The translations under genes were made by a program, and so were the position numbers. A model generated the notes under the pieces. That model searched no databases. It was given only the letters and a program-made list of their open reading frames with translations, and was not told where the DNA came from. DNA of 64,000 nt from the human T2T-CHM13v2.0 reference genome, Homo sapiens, in assembly GCF_009914755.1 (NCBI RefSeq), contig NC_060943.1; one strand, written 5' to 3'. Each line of letters starts with the position of its first letter. Positions within the stretch are counted from its first letter, which is position 1. Positions 38,741 through 44,799 of this stretch are shown here, one piece after another.

Positions 38741-40624
38741 GTAAGTGCCGTGGCTCCCGATCATTGCCTGAGCTGTTGGGGCTGCCAGCGGGAGGAGGGC
38801 CCTGAAGCCAAGAGGGGAGGCTTGGGCTCATCTCGTGAGGGCTGTTGACAGGAGGAGGGCGGGGGTGGGCCACCCAGGGTGGCTGGACCACCCTGGCAGT
38901 GCAGGAGGGAGCAGAGCTGGGGAACCCTGTGGGGGGCCAACATGGACAAGGCTGACTGTGCCTTGCAGACCCCTTGGGGAAGAGGTGAGGGTCCCCGAGG
39001 CCTTGGGGCCCTGGGGTGGCTCATGCAGAGTGGTTCTGGGGAGCTGAAGCGGATGTGGGTTGTGGGGTTCACAGGGGCACTCCTGGAGAGCAGAGGGCTG
39101 GGGGAGGCCTGGGGTCCTGCCCAACTCAGCCATGGCAGGGTGTGACCTAGGGGAGGGGCCTCCTCACCTGCAGACTTCAGTCTTCACCTGGGCAGTGAAT
39201 ATGGGTGCTGAGAAAAGCCCAGAGTGGCCAATGCAGAGGATGTTTATTGAGCACCTACTGTGTGCCTGACTATGCCGGTCCCATGACTAAGTGCCAGTTG
39301 TCCACACCACGGTGGCCACCTCCTTCCTCCTTCTCCCTCTTCTGTTGCTGCTTTCCCCCCTTCACCTTTTCCTCCCCCCACCTTCCTTCGGCCTCCCCCC
39401 TCCCCGCCTCCCCTTCCTCCTTCCCCCCCTCACCCTCCCCGCCTTCCCTCTTCATCATCAGAACACGCATTCACCAAACACTTATTATACGACCAGCCCT
39501 TCCTTGTTATCTTCATTTAGTTCTCACAGCTATAATATCATATTCCAAATAGCTTATCTTTCATAATATAAATGATGAGGAAATGTAGTAATTATATAAT
39601 GTTGGTCTATTTACAGGCCCAGTAACAGTGGTGATCCTGTTACTATTTTGTGATCACACTTCTTACCACGACCATCATTTTTGTATACCCTAAGATCCCC
39701 ATTCAGGTTCTAAACACTCTCCACACGTGACATCAGTGAATTTTCACAGGCATCCCAGGAGGCAGGTTGGTTGTGACCATCTGGCAGTTAAGAGCTCAGG
39801 GGGTTACAGTGGCCTGCCTGGTCCTCAGTCGGTTGGAGGCTGAGCCAGAGCCCTGTCTGCCTGCCACTCCCCGCCACTCACCAGTGGTTGACCCAGGCAG
39901 TTCCCTCGTCTGTGAAATGAGGAAGGGAGCAGCACCCGCCTCATGGGACTGTCACCAACAACAGCATGGAGAATCACAATAATAATGAGTGATGATGATA
40001 GATGCTTCTCGAGCACCTGCCAGGGGCCGGGTGATACCGTGAACCCTCCATGTGGATTTACTGAGAATCCTGGAAGCTGCAGATTTTGATGGGTTATCTG
40101 GTCAGTATTGGTGGAGATGGAAATCTGTATCATAAGTATTGTTTGTGGGGCTTTCCACACATATGCCTGCAGATATTTTTCCATGCGTGTCCTGGGTTGC
40201 AGTCCAGGATAGCATGAAAAGCACTTAAAAAGCATTGAGGCTGGGCACGGTGGCTCACGCCTGTAATCCCAGCACTTTGGGAGGCCGAGGTGGGCGGATC
40301 ACCTGAGGTCGGGAGTTCGAGACCAGCCTGACCAACATGGAGAAACCCTGTCTCTACCAAAAATACAAAATTAGCCGGGCATGGTGGCACACGCCTGTAA
40401 TCCCGGCTGCTTGGGAGGCTAAGGCAGGAGAATTGCTTGAACTCGTGGGCGGAGATTGTGGTGAGCCAGGATCACACCATTGCACTCCAGCCTGGGCAAC
40501 AAGAGTGGAAACTCCGTCTCAAAAAAAACCCAAAGAAACAAAAAGCATTGAACTCACAGTGCGGTTGGCACAGAAGTTCACAAATGGGAGCCACTGCTGA
40601 TGTGAGCTTTACTCCACCAGAACT

Positions 40625-40900
40625 ACGACTGCTTGTCAGAAACCTTTAGGGCCAGGTGTGTTTCAGAATTTCGAATTTCTCCAATTCTGGAAAAGTGGTG
40701 CCATATGTGTGGTGTGTGTCATGTCACACGCTTGCCTTTCGGCGGCCAAACTTGGGATGTCACATCATGTGGATAAATGGATCCCACCTAAAGTGCCATG
40801 TTGGTTCTGGTCAGGTTTTGCTGCCAACAGAGCTATGAAAACAGTCTCAGTTCTTAGAGCTTTTTGGGTTTTGTAATTACAGATAAGTGTTGTGGGCCTA
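40625..40900 (+). mobile_element. Old Tigger-type (MER46C-like) element; a related copy lies at about 63065-63680
   Basis: gggccaggtgtgtttcagaattt...ggtcaggttttgctgccaa...gataagtgttgtgggcct; resembles recalled consensus and the second copy. Confidence 0.5.
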
Positions 40901-40913
40901 TATCACTATTTAA

Positions 40914-41234
<321 letters not shown>

Positions 41235-41253
41235 TAGACTTTATTTTTGTTTT

Positions 41254-41414
41254 TTGGGCGTCAGCTGGTAGAGATTGGGGGACAGCACCCCCGCGGGCTT
41301 GGGCTGGATGGGCATGGGCGTGCGATGCAGGATCACGTTGGGCGCCGGGACCAGTGGTGACAAGCTGAGGCCTGGGGCCACCACCAGCGGCTTTCCTGAG
41401 GGTGCCCCGCTGGG
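41254..41414 (-). pseudogene. Inverted partial duplicate of BICRA exon 6 (copy of 42940-43100)
   Basis: Manual alignment gives 161 bp, 14 mismatches, no gaps. ORF 41241..41429(-) translates to [54 protein letters not shown]. Confidence 0.95.
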
Positions 41415-42144
41415 TCTTACTCTTGTCACTTAGGCTGGAGTACAGTGACACAATCATAGCTCACCGTAGCCTGGAACTCCTGGGCTTAAGAGATCCTCTC
41501 ACCTCAGGCTCCCAAAGTGCTAAGATTACAGGCGTGAGTCACTGTGGCCTTGAACAGTAGTTTTTTTTATTACATTTTACTGATGGGTACAGATGAAGAA
41601 ACTGAGGTCAGATCAAGCACGCCCTAGGTTACACAGCTAAGCCTTGGCAGAGCTGGGATTTGATCCCGGGTCCAGCCACTTGCAGGTGGAATGTTCTTTT
41701 TTCTTTTTTTTTTCTTTTTTTCTTCTTTTTTTTTTTTTCTTCTCAAAGTCTTGCCCTGTCACCGAGGCTGGAGTGTAGTGAAGTGCTCGTAGCTCCACTC
41801 TGCAGCCTCAAACTCCTGGGCTCCAGTGATCCTCTCACCTCAGCCTCCCAAGTAGCTAAGACCACAGGCACATGCTGCCACCCCTGACTAATTTTTCTTT
41901 TTTAAAATTTTTTTCTCACTGCGTTGCCCAGGCTGGTCTCAAACTCTTTGGCTCAAGCCATCCATCCTCCTACCTCAGCCTCCCAAAGTGCTGAGATTAC
42001 AAGCGTGAACCACCATGCCAGGAGGGAATGTTCTTTCTTGAACGTGGCTGCCCTGTCACCTCAGCATTCTTTGCGGCAGCTGTGGCCTAAGCGTAGCCCC
42101 TTGCTAACCTCAGCTCTTTCCTTCCCACCTTTCCCGGCCTGCAG

Positions 42145-44100
42145 CTCCATGTGCAAGAAGCTTCCGGCAACCACCTGAACCCAGAGCCCAACCAGCCGGC
42201 CCCCAGTGTGGACCTAGACTTCCTGGAAGATGACATCCTGGGCTCTCCTGCGACAGGGGGCGGCGGCGGGGGCAGTGGGGGCGCTGACCAGCCCTGTGAC
42301 ATCCTCCAGCAGAGCCTCCAAGAGGCCAACATCACGGAGCAGACGCTGGAGGCCGAGGCTGAGCTGGACCTGGGTCCCTTCCAGCTGCCCACCCTGCAGC
42401 CTGCGGATGGCGGGGCAGGCCCGACGGGCGCTGGAGGGGCAGCGGCCGTGGCTGCGGGGCCCCAAGCCCTCTTCCCAGGCAGCACCGACCTGCTGGGGCT
42501 GCAGGGCCCGCCTACCGTGCTGACCCACCAGGCCCTGGTGCCGCCCCAGGACGTGGTCAACAAGGCCCTGAGTGTGCAGCCCTTCCTGCAGCCTGTGGGC
42601 CTGGGCAATGTGACACTGCAGCCCATCCCGGGCCTCCAAGGCCTGCCCAATGGCAGCCCTGGGGGTGCCACGGCGGCCACACTGGGCCTGGCGCCCATCC
42701 AGGTGGTGGGCCAGCCCGTCATGGCGCTCAACACGCCCACCTCCCAGCTCCTGGCCAAGCAGGTGCCCGTCAGCGGCTACCTGGCCTCGGCGGCTGGCCC
42801 CTCGGAGCCCGTGACGCTGGCGTCGGCCGGTGTCTCGCCACAGGGGGCTGGCCTGGTCATCCAGAAGAACCTCTCGGCCGCTGTGGCCACCACGCTCAAT
42901 GGGAACTCTGTGTTCGGAGGCGCGGGGGCCGCCTCGGCTCCCACCGGGACGCCCTCGGGACAGCCGCTGGCGGTGGCCCCAGGCCTCGGCTCGTCGCCAC
43001 TGGTCCCGGCGCCCAACGTGATCCTGCATCGCACACCCACGCCCATCCAGCCCAAGCCCGCGGGGGTGCTGCCGCCCAAGCTCTACCAGCTGACGCCCAA
43101 GCCGTTTGCGCCCGCGGGCGCCACGCTCACCATCCAGGGCGAGCCGGGGGCGCTCCCGCAGCAGCCCAAGGCCCCGCAGAACCTGACGTTCATGGCGGCG
43201 GGGAAGGCGGGCCAGAACGTGGTGCTGTCGGGCTTCCCCGCGCCTGCGCTGCAAGCGAACGTCTTCAAGCAGCCACCGGCCACCACCACCGGAGCGGCCC
43301 CGCCGCAGCCCCCCGGGGCCCTGAGCAAACCCATGAGCGTCCACCTCCTGAACCAAGGCAGCAGCATCGTCATCCCCGCCCAGCACATGCTGCCGGGCCA
43401 GAACCAGTTCCTACTGCCTGGCGCCCCGGCGGTCCAGCTCCCGCAGCAGCTCTCAGCCCTGCCGGCCAACGTGGGCGGGCAGATCCTGGCGGCCGCTGCC
43501 CCCCACACAGGTGGACAGCTCATCGCGAACCCCATCCTCACAAACCAGAACCTGGCGGGCCCACTGAGCCTGGGCCCCGTGTTGGCCCCCCACTCCGGGG
43601 CCCACAGCGCGCACATCCTCTCCGCCGCTCCCATCCAGGTGGGCCAGCCTGCGCTCTTCCAGATGCCCGTGTCGCTGGCGGCGGGCAGCCTGCCCACGCA
43701 GAGCCAGCCAGCGCCCGCCGGGCCGGCCGCCACCACTGTCCTCCAGGGGGTCACCCTGCCCCCCAGCGCCGTGGCCATGCTCAACACCCCCGACGGCCTG
43801 GTGCAGCCGGCCACCCCTGCCGCTGCCACCGGGGAGGCCGCGCCTGTCCTCACGGTGCAGCCTGCCCCCCAGGCGCCCCCCGCGGTCAGCACACCCCTGC
43901 CCCTGGGCCTCCAGCAGCCGCAGGCGCAGCAGCCCCCGCAGGCCCCCACCCCACAGGCCGCCGCCCCGCCTCAGGCCACCACCCCCCAGCCCAGCCCTGG
44001 CCTGGCGTCTAGCCCGGAGAAGATCGTCCTGGGGCAGCCGCCCTCTGCCACCCCCACGGCCATCCTCACTCAGGACTCCCTGCAGATGTTCCTGCCCCAG
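42145..44100 (+). CDS. BICRA: BICRA exon 6 (1956 nt; Pro/Ala/Gly/Gln-rich low-complexity region, residues ~51-702)
   Basis: ctgcAG acceptor, CAG|gtaagc donor; matches ORF 42151..44268 up to ...LQMFLPQ; high GC3 and CpG content. Confidence 0.97.
42240..44060. other. Intragenic CpG-rich region coincident with exon 6
   Basis: Visibly very high GC and CpG density compared with the flanking introns (not computed). Confidence 0.6.
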
Positions 44101-44799
44101 GTAAGCAGGGCGGGGCAAGGGAGCAGGTACCGGAGGAGGCGGGTTTGGGAGGAAGAGGGGTCCTGGGGCGAGGCGCCAAGATCCAAAAGTGGATGCCACT
44201 GTGGCAGCTGGGGGGGGAAGGTCTCAGTCATGGCACAGGTGGCCCCTAAGAGGAGGCCCGAAGGGTGAGGGCCCTGGCTGAACTGGCAGGAAGATGGATT
44301 GGCAGGTTGGCTGACTGATAGACAAGGGGCAGGACAACTGTTAGGCAGTGAGAGGGACTGGCAGACAGACAGACAAAGAGAGGGACCAGTGAACAGACAG
44401 AAGGGTAGGCACTGGCTGGGCTGCTGACAGATGGAGAGGAGAGGGACCGGCAGGGAGAGGGACTACCCGACGGACAGAGAAGGGCAGGCACTGGCTGGCC
44501 TGCTGACAGACAAGGAGAGGAATCTCAGAGAGAAAGTGGACGAGACAGGGACAGAGGGACAGGCAGGTGGGGCAGGAGAGAGGCAGGGCAACGTGGAGCT
44601 GGCAGAGGGGCCAATGGGAGCTCAGAATGGAGCAGGCTGCCTGGGTTTCGGCCTCTGTGCCTGGCACCCTGCCTGCCAGGCTGCCCACTACCCCATTCTC
44701 TGGAACCCTGGGAGCGTCAATAGGGGCAGGGGTCTCGGGTGGGGAGGTCGAGGGCCTGTGGGGGCGGCTTTCTGATCCTGTGCGGGCTGCCCGTTGCAG

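What the first reader, a model, noticed from the sequence alone, without database searches (positions are those of the whole stretch)
41254..41414. Inverted 161-bp copy of BICRA's own exon-6 coding sequence inserted in an Alu monomer in intron 5
Seen: the reverse complement of 41254-41414 aligns without gaps to 42940-43100 (about codons 316-369) with 14 mismatches (91.3% identity) and perfect runs of 38 and 31 bp. Seven mismatches are CpG->TpG/CpA losses in the copy and 9 of 54 codons change amino acid, so the intronic segment is the derived, non-coding copy. It lies exactly between the body and A-rich tail of a minus-strand Alu monomer: consensus ...GACCC-TGTCT-CAAAAA appears as ...GACCC-[insert]-CAAAAA, with 3-nt microhomologies (CCC, CAA) and loss of about 5 nt. 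Inference: a local templated insertion (replication template switch or Pol-theta-type repair). Alternatively, because the minus strand reads Alu body + mRNA-sense BICRA + A tail, it could be an L1-RT template-switch chimera. It looks less diverged than the host monomer, which favours insertion into a pre-existing Alu.
Basis: partly seen in the sequence, partly recalled or inferred. Interest (0 to 1): 0.85.

Follow-up and report, generated by a model that had tools for sequence, protein, structure and literature searches.

The report
Inverted BICRA exon piece inside intronic Alu
A 155-161 base piece of BICRA's own exon 6 was copied backwards, tens of millions of years ago, into an old Alu element 1.5 kb upstream in the intron, most likely as a scar of DNA break or replication repair, and it is a clean but not unprecedented example of its kind.

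Summary
Window 41254-41414 is the reverse complement of exon-6 bases 42940-43100 (161 nt, 14 mismatches). It is the only other copy in the 3.1-Gb assembly and the only non-Alu self-match in the window.

The intronic copy is the derived, decaying one. Seven CpG transitions and one CpG transversion fall in it, and 9 of 53 complete codons are changed.

It replaces 5 nt exactly at the body/tail boundary of a monomer-length minus-strand Alu, with 3-nt microhomology at each junction (chance of both about 0.004). Its own junctions are not bracketed by a target-site duplication.

The insert is much less decayed than its host Alu. This argues against a co-retrotransposed chimera.

Best explanation (about 0.6): a DNA-templated, microhomology-primed local copying event. 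Either the resected 3' tail of a break folded back 1.5 kb onto its own strand, or a replication fork switched template. About 155 nt were copied and the end rejoined. An RNA-templated patch (about 0.2) cannot be excluded.

Newly noticed: the tail-side junction lies 0-3 nt from the nick site of a nested full-length Alu.

The pair is predicted to form a 147-bp exon-intron duplex in the pre-mRNA. I found no evidence of editing.

It is a new member of a known kind, of moderate interest.

The parts
41254..41414 (-). Inverted copy of BICRA exon-6 codons 316-369. The minus strand reads BICRA sense. It includes the two 3-nt junction microhomologies.
   Evidence: 161 nt, 14 mismatches, E = 1.2e-57 genome-wide
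41257..41411 (-). The 155 nt that can only have come from the exon (unambiguous insert)
   Evidence: TTG and GGG at the ends are shared with the inferred uninterrupted Alu sequence
41254..41256 (+). Tail-side junction microhomology, TTG (CAA on the minus strand)
   Evidence: chance of 3 nt or more at both junctions is 0.0038
41412..41414 (+). Body-side junction microhomology, GGG (CCC on the minus strand). This is the proposed fold-back priming site.
42940..43100 (+). Source segment within coding exon 6 (exon 42145-44100). It is intact and in frame.
   Evidence: hub annotation for the exon limits
41415..42939 (.). 1525-nt spacer between the arms (the fold-back loop). It holds the host Alu body, another minus-strand Alu (about 41747-42019), the intron-5 3' splice site at 42144/42145 and the first 795 nt of exon 6.
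   Evidence: hub annotation
41415..41552 (-). Body of the host Alu: monomer length, left-arm-like 5' half and right-arm-like 3' half, heavily decayed
   Evidence: non-CpG divergence 15/104, CpG kept 1/12
40923..40947 (-). Distal part of the host Alu's A-rich tail (T-rich on the plus strand), separated from the rest by the nested Alu
   Evidence: read directly
40913..40922 (.). Left copy of the host Alu's target-site duplication (AACAATAGTT)
   Evidence: 9 of 10 identical to 41553-41562
41553..41562 (.). Right copy of the host Alu's target-site duplication (AACAGTAGTT)
40948..41239 (-). Nested full-length Alu ('Alu#1'): tail 40948-40958, body 40959-41239
   Evidence: non-CpG divergence 0.068, CpG kept 3/23
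40934..40947 (.). Left copy of Alu#1's 14-bp target-site duplication (TTTATTTTTGTTTT)
   Evidence: 14 of 14 identical to 41240-41253
41240..41253 (.). Right copy of Alu#1's target-site duplication. It ends one base before the insert begins.

Best explanation
This is a fixed, ancient templated insertion made at the DNA level. A break, or a stalled nascent strand, arose at the body/tail boundary of a pre-existing minus-strand Alu in BICRA intron 5.

In the fold-back version, 5' resection of the right-hand end exposed the minus strand for at least 1.7 kb. Its 3' end (...GACCC, after loss of 5 nt) folded back and paired through 3 nt with GGG at 42942-42940 on the same strand. A polymerase then copied about 155 nt, up to 43100. 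The extended end came off, and its new terminus (...CAA) annealed to TTG on the other break end. The gap was then filled and sealed.

A replication-fork template switch with two microhomology-guided jumps gives the same product and cannot be told apart from the fold-back route.

The copy has since decayed neutrally. Shown here: the structure, the single source, the junction microhomologies, the 5-nt loss, the lack of a target-site duplication around the insert, and its younger age than the host. Inferred: that the template was DNA, the fold-back route, and that the copy has no function.
For: (1) The source is unique, lies 1525 nt away in cis, and is inverted.

(2) There is 3-nt microhomology at both junctions. 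In 20,000 simulated inverted insertions in this window, 3 nt or more at one junction occurred with P = 0.056 and at both with P = 0.0038.

(3) Five nt of target are lost. No duplication brackets the insert itself, and there are no untemplated bases.

(4) The insert is younger than its host. Non-CpG differences are 5-6/127 against 15/104 (p = 0.008-0.02). CpG kept is 9/17 against 1/12 (p = 0.019).

(5) The geometry is exact. Worked through by hand on the sequences, a fold-back of the right-hand 3' tail reproduces orientation, side, both junctions and the order of the parts.

(6) There are precedents in passages I read. [quoted passage not shown] Human fold-back inverted duplications have loops of 766-70,466 bp (median 3,428) and 2-8 bp of inverted microhomology at 13 of 18 junctions (PMC3907307). 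Here the loop is 1525 bp and the microhomology 3 bp.
Against: Nothing in the sequence separates a DNA template from an RNA template. The 161 nt lie wholly inside one exon, so no splice junction can tell.

The plus strand reads T-run followed by BICRA antisense. That is also the polarity expected if the T-run had primed reverse transcription of BICRA RNA.

The tail-side junction lies 0-3 nt from the L1-endonuclease nick site of the nested Alu. This hints at retrotransposition machinery at this spot.

Templated insertions ascribed to polymerase theta or found by MMBSearch are mostly shorter and have templates within about 100 bp (PMC8421209). Here the insert is 155 nt and the template 1.5 kb away.

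The pre-insertion sequence, and so the exact microhomology and the 5-nt loss, is inferred from other Alus, not observed.

The host's divergence was measured against a consensus dominated by younger Alus, which inflates it somewhat.
Confidence: 0.6

Rival explanations
1. RNA-templated patch. A nick or break at the end of the Alu's T-run was extended by a reverse transcriptase (L1 ORF2p or another) using BICRA pre-mRNA or mRNA made at the same locus. Priming was through TTG/CAA. After about 155 nt the cDNA was joined to the other side by microhomology, with a 5-nt deletion. This would be a class-2 'templated sequence insertion'.

A variant of this rival: the initiating lesion was the L1 endonuclease nick that also served the nested Alu.
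For: The polarity fits. The plus strand reads T-run then antisense BICRA, as in target-primed reverse transcription.

The size fits: experimental templated sequence insertions measure 73-414 bp, median 191. The junction features of class 2 also fit: no TSD, microdeletion, microhomology (PMC5110952, whole-text parts 1-2).

The source is entirely exonic and transcribed (hub annotation).

The junction lies 0-3 nt from the nested Alu's TSD edge.

A preprint reports templated insertions and inverted duplications at ORF2p-made break ends (PMC11702581, passages only).
Against: Reported templated sequence insertions come from distant regions spread over 18 of 24 chromosomes, not from 1.5 kb away in the same gene (PMC5110952).

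The RNA has only AA at the priming point, with no poly(A) stretch or poly(A) signal.

No TSD brackets the insert.

The insert lies outside the nested Alu's TSD. The usual ORF2p template-jump chimera would lie inside it.

The insert keeps more CpG than the nested Alu: 9/17 against 3/23, p = 0.013. However, scatter among the window's Alus is large.
Confidence: 0.22
2. Single-event retro-chimera. Alu body, BICRA mRNA fragment and A-tail were reverse-transcribed together, by L1 reverse transcriptase switching templates twice, and inserted as one unit between the host's TSDs.
For: The minus strand reads Alu body, BICRA sense, A-rich tail. The whole is flanked by a 10-bp TSD that matches at 9 of 10 positions.
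Against: The insert is significantly less decayed than the Alu body on two independent measures.

The route needs two internal-to-internal template jumps that return to the same Alu RNA only 5 nt from the leaving point.

The BICRA piece is from the middle of the coding region, not from an RNA end.

Gene conversion from the exon could in principle have rejuvenated the copy. But the mismatch spacing shows no conversion tract: P(longest run of 38 or more) = 0.28.
Confidence: 0.04
3. Capture of a free DNA fragment. A roughly nucleosome- or Okazaki-sized piece of exon-6 DNA, from a sister chromatid or a displaced flap, was ligated into a break by end joining.
For: The size, about 155-161 nt, is compatible. 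The donor site is intact.
Against: Three-nt microhomology at both junctions is unlikely for plain ligation (P = 0.0038).

The model explains neither the inverted orientation nor why the source lies within resection range on the same side as the priming microhomology.
Confidence: 0.06
4. Assembly artefact, or a very recent or private variant.
For: None found. Only one assembly could be examined.
Against: The copy differs from the exon at 14 of 161 sites, in a CpG-decay pattern (7 CpG transitions). Misplaced exon reads would not produce this.

The junctions are clean and sit inside a nested Alu/TSD structure that is otherwise coherent.
Confidence: 0.01

Closest known systems
MMBIR/FoSTeS-type templated insertions (MMB-TI signature; PMC8421209, passages read)
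   Same: The insertion is an inverted copy of a nearby template. Microhomology sits at both junctions, the donor is left intact, and a small amount of target sequence is replaced.
   Different: It is about 155 nt long with its template 1.5 kb away. The published detection tool looks for inserts of 10 nt up to read length with templates within 100 bp. This one is fixed and old rather than somatic or de novo, and its template is coding sequence of the same gene.
Fold-back inverted duplications (Hermetz et al. 2014, PMC3907307, passages read)
   Same: An inverted copy is separated from its source by a single-copy spacer of kilobase size (here 1525 bp; published 766-70,466 bp). Short inverted microhomology sits at the spacer/inversion junction (here 3 bp; published 2-8 bp).
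   Different: Synthesis stopped after about 155 nt and the end rejoined its partner. There is therefore no terminal deletion, no dicentric chromosome and no megabase duplication.
Short-range template-switch mutations in great apes (Walker et al. 2021, PMC7954356, passages read)
   Same: A reverse-complement copy creates a new inverted repeat, fixed in the lineage.
   Different: Those events act over tens to hundreds of nucleotides and mostly appear as mutation clusters. This one spans 1.5 kb and adds 155 nt.
Class 2 templated sequence insertion polymorphisms (Onozawa & Aplan 2016, PMC5110952, parts 1-2 read)
   Same: The size range matches. There is no TSD around the insert, a microdeletion and microhomology at the junctions, and a transcribed donor left intact.
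   Different: The donor is 1.5 kb away in cis rather than at a distant locus. An RNA origin is not shown. This insert is apparently fixed and old, not polymorphic.
L1-mediated chimeric retrocopies such as U6-L1 (recalled from the literature, not read here)
   Same: On the minus strand an unrelated RNA-sense sequence lies between SINE sequence and an A-rich tail.
   Different: The parts differ in age. The BICRA piece is internal to both the mRNA and the Alu. It would need two jumps returning 5 nt from the start.
Intronic editing-complementary sequences of ADAR recoding targets such as GRIA2 Q/R (recalled, not read here)
   Same: Intronic sequence complementary to a coding exon is predicted to form a long duplex in the pre-mRNA: 147 pairs in the minimum-energy fold.
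   Different: No editing of BICRA exon 6 was found in the one recoding catalogue I could search (0 hits). Two main-text literature searches found none either. The only BICRA editing I saw described is in the 3'UTR. The complementary element is upstream of the exon, and nothing suggests it has been selected.

Membership tests
Microhomology-mediated templated insertion (MMBIR/FoSTeS/SD-MMEJ class) | The inserted bases are a copy of a nearby genomic template, and that template remains intact | tested here: met
   unique source 1525 nt away, exon intact and in frame
Microhomology-mediated templated insertion (MMBIR/FoSTeS/SD-MMEJ class) | Microhomology at the junctions beyond chance | tested here: met
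   3 nt at each junction. Simulated P(both 3 nt or more) = 0.0038. This depends on an inferred pre-insertion sequence.
Microhomology-mediated templated insertion (MMBIR/FoSTeS/SD-MMEJ class) | Inverted orientation relative to the template (the classical MMB-TI signature) | tested here: met
   (inverted pair I1)
Microhomology-mediated templated insertion (MMBIR/FoSTeS/SD-MMEJ class) | Template within about 100 bp (search criterion of MMBSearch, PMC8421209) | tested here: not met
   The distance is 1525 nt. This is a criterion of the tool, not of the mechanism.
Microhomology-mediated templated insertion (MMBIR/FoSTeS/SD-MMEJ class) | The template was DNA, not RNA | not testable with these tools
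   The source lies wholly within one exon, so there is no splice junction or other mark to tell.
Fold-back inverted duplication | A single-copy spacer of about 0.8-70 kb, with 2-8 bp of inverted microhomology at its edge | tested here: met
   Spacer 1525 bp, GGG/CCC 3 bp; ranges from PMC3907307
Fold-back inverted duplication | Terminal deletion or dicentric intermediate with a large duplication | tested here: not met
   Only 155-161 nt are duplicated and both flanks are continuous. So it works like a fold-back but is not a member of that rearrangement class.
Class 1 TSIP / L1 target-primed retro-insertion of a cellular RNA | TSD of at least 5 bp bracketing the insert | tested here: not met
   Five nt are deleted rather than duplicated. 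The TSDs present belong to the host Alu and to the nested Alu.
Class 1 TSIP / L1 target-primed retro-insertion of a cellular RNA | Its own poly(A) tract 10-20 nt downstream of a poly(A) signal | tested here: not met
   The copy ends in ...CCCAA with no AATAAA in its last bases. The adjacent A-rich run is the host Alu's tail.
Class 2 TSIP (break patch from reverse-transcribed RNA) | No TSD and no poly(A); microdeletion and microhomology at the junctions | tested here: met
Class 2 TSIP (break patch from reverse-transcribed RNA) | Template from a distant genomic region | tested here: not met
   The source is 1.5 kb away in the same gene.
L1 template-switch retro-chimera with the host Alu | All parts inserted at once, and hence of equal age | tested here: not met
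   Non-CpG 5-6/127 against 15/104 (p = 0.008-0.02). CpG kept 9/17 against 1/12 (p = 0.019).
ADAR editing-complementary sequence | An intronic element that pairs with the exon in the pre-mRNA | tested here: met
   Prediction only. 147 arm-arm pairs in the minimum-energy fold of 41150-43200, worth about -269 kcal/mol. The two arms alone give -353 kcal/mol.
ADAR editing-complementary sequence | Observed A-to-I editing at exon sites that depends on the element | tested here: inconclusive
   0 occurrences of BICRA or GLTSCR1 in the 3 supplementary files held for PMC8897444. No paper listed concerns exon-6 editing by its listing; the two I opened do not. REDIportal and RNA-seq data were not available.

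The most novel reading that the evidence does not exclude
The insertion gave anthropoid primates a new exon-intron double-stranded RNA in the pre-mRNA of a dosage-sensitive chromatin gene. The duplex is 161 nt long, with 147 predicted pairs, and loops out the intron-5 3' splice site and the first 795 nt of exon 6.

On this reading it acts like an editing-complementary sequence made in one step by a repair accident. It would draw ADAR onto coding adenosines. Two exon adenosines already sit opposite C: 42949 (Thr319 to Ala if edited) and 43035 (synonymous). Alternatively, or in addition, it would slow or modulate splicing of exon 6.

The inverted pair could also predispose the locus to rare inversions that disrupt exon 6.
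Probability: 0.1. Interest if true: 0.65.

Novelty: new member of a known kind. Interest (0 to 1): 0.4.

Why it matters
This is an unusually legible fossil of a microhomology-primed templated insertion. The source is unique, both junctions are readable, and the host repeat tells what the site looked like before the event. Relative dating is possible from three nested events at one spot.

Most described cases are somatic, pathogenic or a few tens of bases long. A fixed 155-nt example at kilobase range links the short-range template switches seen in ape genomes with the fold-back events behind large inverted duplications.

It also shows how a single repair accident can place a near-perfect antisense copy of coding sequence in the adjacent intron. 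That is the architecture that ADAR recoding sites depend on.

If the nick-site coincidence with the nested Alu is not chance, L1 endonuclease breaks would be implicated as a germline source of such scars.

Tried and rejected
- **Closer source elsewhere, or a paralogue such as BICRAL:** rejected. DNA and protein searches of the whole assembly find only the copy and exon 6.
- **Gene conversion between the arms making the copy look young:** no signal. Runs of 38 and 31 nt are ordinary for 14 mismatches in 161 (P = 0.28 and 0.08).
- **Known RNA families in 40500-43500:** only sub-threshold Alu-type hits (Metazoa_SRP, mir-1268, mir-3135), none in the insert.
- **Editing of BICRA exon 6:**
  - Three main-text searches listed 1, 4 and 7 papers. 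None concerns exon-6 editing by its listing.
  - I opened two of them. One describes an editing site in the BICRA 3'UTR (PMC10172764). The other names an lncRNA near BICRAL (PMC11103575).
  - The supplements held for the human recoding atlas contain neither gene name. Long files may have been cut when stored.
- **A described origin of editing-complementary sequences by inverted duplication:** one four-term search found no paper. This is a narrow search, not proof of absence.
- **Fold-back of the nested Alu's own reciprocal break end as the source of the insert:** rejected on geometry. That end carries the TSD at its tip, so a snap-back product would lie between the TSD and the Alu. The insert lies on the other side of the TSD.
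- **R-loop exposure of the sense strand as a reason for template choice:** not supported. The exon is C-rich on the sense strand (G 46, C 73 in the arm).
- **Exon derived from the intronic copy:** rejected. The segment is an in-frame internal part of a 1956-nt coding exon, its length is not a multiple of three, and the decay sits in the intronic copy.

Full report
**1. Is it there?**

Yes. The repeat finder lists one long inverted pair in 40500-44500: 41254-41414 against 42940-43100, 161 nt, 91% complementary, 1525 nt apart. A base-by-base comparison gives 14 mismatches, no gaps and perfect runs of 38 and 31 nt. Similarity ends abruptly at both ends.

The coding sequence upstream of exon 6 is 150 nt. 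The arm therefore starts at the first base of codon 316 and runs into codon 369.

A search of the window's own 3.1-Gb assembly with the 161-mer returns only the copy itself and exon 6 (E = 1.2e-57). A translated 53-residue search returns the same two, and the next hit has E = 0.5. A self-BLAST of the whole 64-kb window, after removing Alu-overlapping hits, leaves this pair alone (1 of 3299 raw hits). So the repeat is real, unique and far beyond chance, and no closer source or paralogue exists in this assembly.

**2. Which copy is derived?**

Taking the exon as reference, the 14 differences break down as follows:
- Seven are CpG to TpG/CpA in the intronic copy.
- One is a CpG lost by transversion in the copy.
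- Five are other substitutions.
- At one site (43035) the copy keeps CpG and the exon has CpA. This is a synonymous third-position difference and is probably a change in the exon.

The exon arm has 17 CpG and the copy 10, of which 9 are shared. The differences fall on codon positions 1, 2 and 3 as 4, 4 and 6, and they alter 9 of 53 complete codons. That is the pattern of unconstrained decay.

The segment length is not a multiple of three, and it is an internal part of a 1956-nt coding exon. Exon-to-intron is therefore the only sensible direction.

The mismatch spacing gives no sign of later gene conversion: P(longest run of 38 or more) = 0.28 and P(second run of 31 or more) = 0.08.

**3. Surroundings**

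The insert sits in a nest of three retroelement events, read.

(a) **The host.** This is a monomer-length minus-strand Alu.
- Its body (41415-41552) matches the left arm of the window's Alu consensus in its 5' half and the right arm in its 3' half.
- It is flanked by a 10-bp target-site duplication at 40913-40922 and 41553-41562 that matches at 9 of 10 positions.

(b) **The nested Alu.** A full-length minus-strand Alu (body 40959-41239, tail 40948-40958) lies inside the host's tail. It has a perfect 14-bp duplication at 40934-40947 and 41240-41253.

(c) **The exon-derived insert.** It lies at the host's body/tail boundary.
- The 17-mer that spans an uninterrupted boundary occurs 11 times in other Alus of the window at up to 1 mismatch, 5 of them exact.
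- Compared with it, the host has lost 5 nt.
- TTG (41254-41256) and GGG (41412-41414) could belong either to the Alu or to the exon copy. That leaves 155 nt (41257-41411) that can only be exon-derived.
- There are no untemplated bases, and no duplication brackets the insert.

Rfam finds only sub-threshold Alu-type matches in 40500-43500 and none in the insert.

**4. Relative age**

I built a majority consensus from 37 near-full-length Alus of the window and scored each copy.

| Element | Non-CpG differences | CpG kept |
|---|---|---|
| Host body | 15/104 (14.4%) | 1/12 |
| Nested Alu | 6.8% | 3/23 |
| Insert (against the exon) | 5-6/127 (3.9-4.7%) | 9/17 |

The 37 Alus range from 1.7 to 19.4% in non-CpG divergence.

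The tests are as follows:
- **Host against insert:** p = 0.008-0.02 for non-CpG sites and p = 0.019 for CpG retention. By hand, Fisher's method combines these to roughly 0.003.
- **Insert against nested Alu:** only CpG retention was tested, p = 0.013. No non-CpG test was run, and CpG retention scatters widely among window Alus of similar divergence. I therefore leave their order open.

One caveat: the consensus is dominated by younger Alus, so the host's divergence is somewhat overstated. The alignment to a consensus of the 13 most diverged copies still shows many mismatches.

The insertion therefore entered an Alu that was already old. In absolute terms, 5-6 changes in 127 sites give a 95% interval of 1.3-10%. 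With recalled primate neutral rates this means tens of millions of years, most likely on the anthropoid or catarrhine stem. That is a prediction, not a result.

**5. Mechanism**

Three-nt microhomology at both junctions is unlikely by chance. In 20,000 simulated inverted 155-nt insertions with a 5-nt deletion in this window, 5.6% of junctions had 3 nt or more, and 0.38% of events had it at both junctions.

[quoted passage not shown] The features are the small target deletion, the missing duplication, the intact donor, the inverted orientation and the source 1.5 kb away in cis.

A specific route reproduces every detail when followed through on the sequence:
- A double-strand break forms at the body/tail boundary.
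- 5' resection of the right-hand end proceeds over at least 1.7 kb.
- The exposed minus-strand 3' end (...GACCC, after trimming 5 nt) folds back onto GGG at 42942-42940 of the same strand.
- Synthesis runs to 43100.
- The end releases, and the new ...CAA terminus anneals to TTG on the left-hand end.

The loop (1525 nt) and the microhomology (3 nt) lie inside the ranges found for human fold-back inverted duplications. Those have spacers of 766-70,466 bp (median 3,428) and 2-8 bp of microhomology at 13 of 18 junctions (PMC3907307, passages). The difference is that copying here stopped after about 155 nt and the two ends were reunited.

A fork-stalling template switch with two jumps gives the same product. 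I cannot separate the two routes, and I treat them as one explanation (confidence 0.6).

**6. Rivals**

- **RNA-templated patch (about 0.2).**
  - For: the plus strand reads T-run then antisense BICRA, which is the polarity of target-primed reverse transcription. The size and junction features match class-2 templated sequence insertions, which measure 73-414 bp and show no duplication, a microdeletion and microhomology (PMC5110952).
  - Against: those insertions come from distant loci on many chromosomes. The RNA offers only AA at the priming point. There is no poly(A) signal or tract of the insert's own.
- **Retro-chimera with the host Alu (about 0.04).** The age difference speaks against it. 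So does the need for two internal template jumps that return 5 nt from the leaving point.
- **Ligation of a free fragment (about 0.06).** This does not explain the double microhomology or the orientation.
- **Assembly artefact (about 0.01).** This does not fit 14 decayed sites.

**7. A new observation**

The right copy of the nested Alu's duplication ends at 41253, and the insert begins at 41254. The tail-side junction therefore lies 0-3 nt from the L1-endonuclease first-strand nick used by that Alu.

Two readings are possible. The end of the T-run may simply be a hot spot for both events. Or an L1-made break may have started the insertion. A preprint reports templated insertions and inverted duplications at ORF2p-made break ends (PMC11702581, passages).

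The usual template-jump chimera is excluded, because the insert lies outside the duplication. A snap-back of the nested Alu's own reciprocal end is excluded on geometry. The link stays open and would be settled by primate comparison.

**8. Consequences**

In the pre-mRNA the two arms are complementary. Folded together they give -353 kcal/mol. In the minimum-energy fold of 41150-43200 they form 147 pairs, 145 of them in register. Forbidding the intron arm to pair costs 269 kcal/mol. The loop holds the intron-5 3' splice site and the first 795 nt of exon 6.

The exon arm has 24 adenosines (22 lie in the 53 complete codons listed). Two of them lie opposite C: 42949 (Thr319 to Ala if edited) and 43035 (synonymous).

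I found no evidence that this duplex is used:
- The supplements held for the human recoding atlas contain neither BICRA nor GLTSCR1.
- Main-text searches gave only a 3'UTR editing site and an unrelated lncRNA near BICRAL.

REDIportal and RNA-seq data were not available. Editing of the intronic arm, or low-level editing, is therefore untested.

**9. Verdict**

The feature is a fixed, old, exon-derived inverted templated insertion into an Alu.

It is best explained by microhomology-primed DNA copying after a break or fork stall. It is most likely a neutral scar. It is a new member of a known kind, of moderate interest.

The residual chance of something more lies in two places: the predicted exon-intron duplex, and the coincidence with an L1 nick site.

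Not done, because the tools hold no primate or population data: orthologue comparison, a polymorphism check, and editing data.

Noticed in passing
window 40934-40947, 41240-41253 and 41254: The nested full-length Alu has a perfect 14-bp target-site duplication. Its right copy ends one base before the exon-derived insert starts. So the insert's tail-side junction lies 0-3 nt from an L1-endonuclease nick site.
   Followed up: partly
window 41415-41552: The host 'monomer' is not a plain free monomer. Its 5' half aligns to the left arm and its 3' half to the right arm of the window's Alu consensus. This is what a dimeric Alu would look like after losing about 135 bp by recombination between its two homologous arms.
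   Followed up: partly
window 41240-41272: The Alu-derived T-run followed by ...CAG at 41262-41264, inside the insert, looks like a polypyrimidine tract plus 3' splice acceptor. The insertion removed the usual antisense-Alu acceptor motif and supplied this one. No annotated exon uses it.
   Followed up: no
window 40238-40529 (+) and 40940-41240 (-): A plus-strand Alu and the nested minus-strand Alu lie about 400 nt apart in intron 5. This is an ordinary inverted Alu pair that would itself form dsRNA just upstream of the exon-intron duplex.
   Followed up: no
window 43035: This is the only difference at which the intronic copy keeps a CpG and the exon has CpA (codon 347, ACA against ACG, synonymous). 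The copy may preserve the ancestral exon base here.
   Followed up: no
window, whole: At least 37 near-full-length Alus lie in the 64 kb, with non-CpG divergence from their own consensus of 1.7-19.4%. CpG retention (4-65%) is poorly correlated with it, which limits CpG-based dating at this locus.
   Followed up: partly
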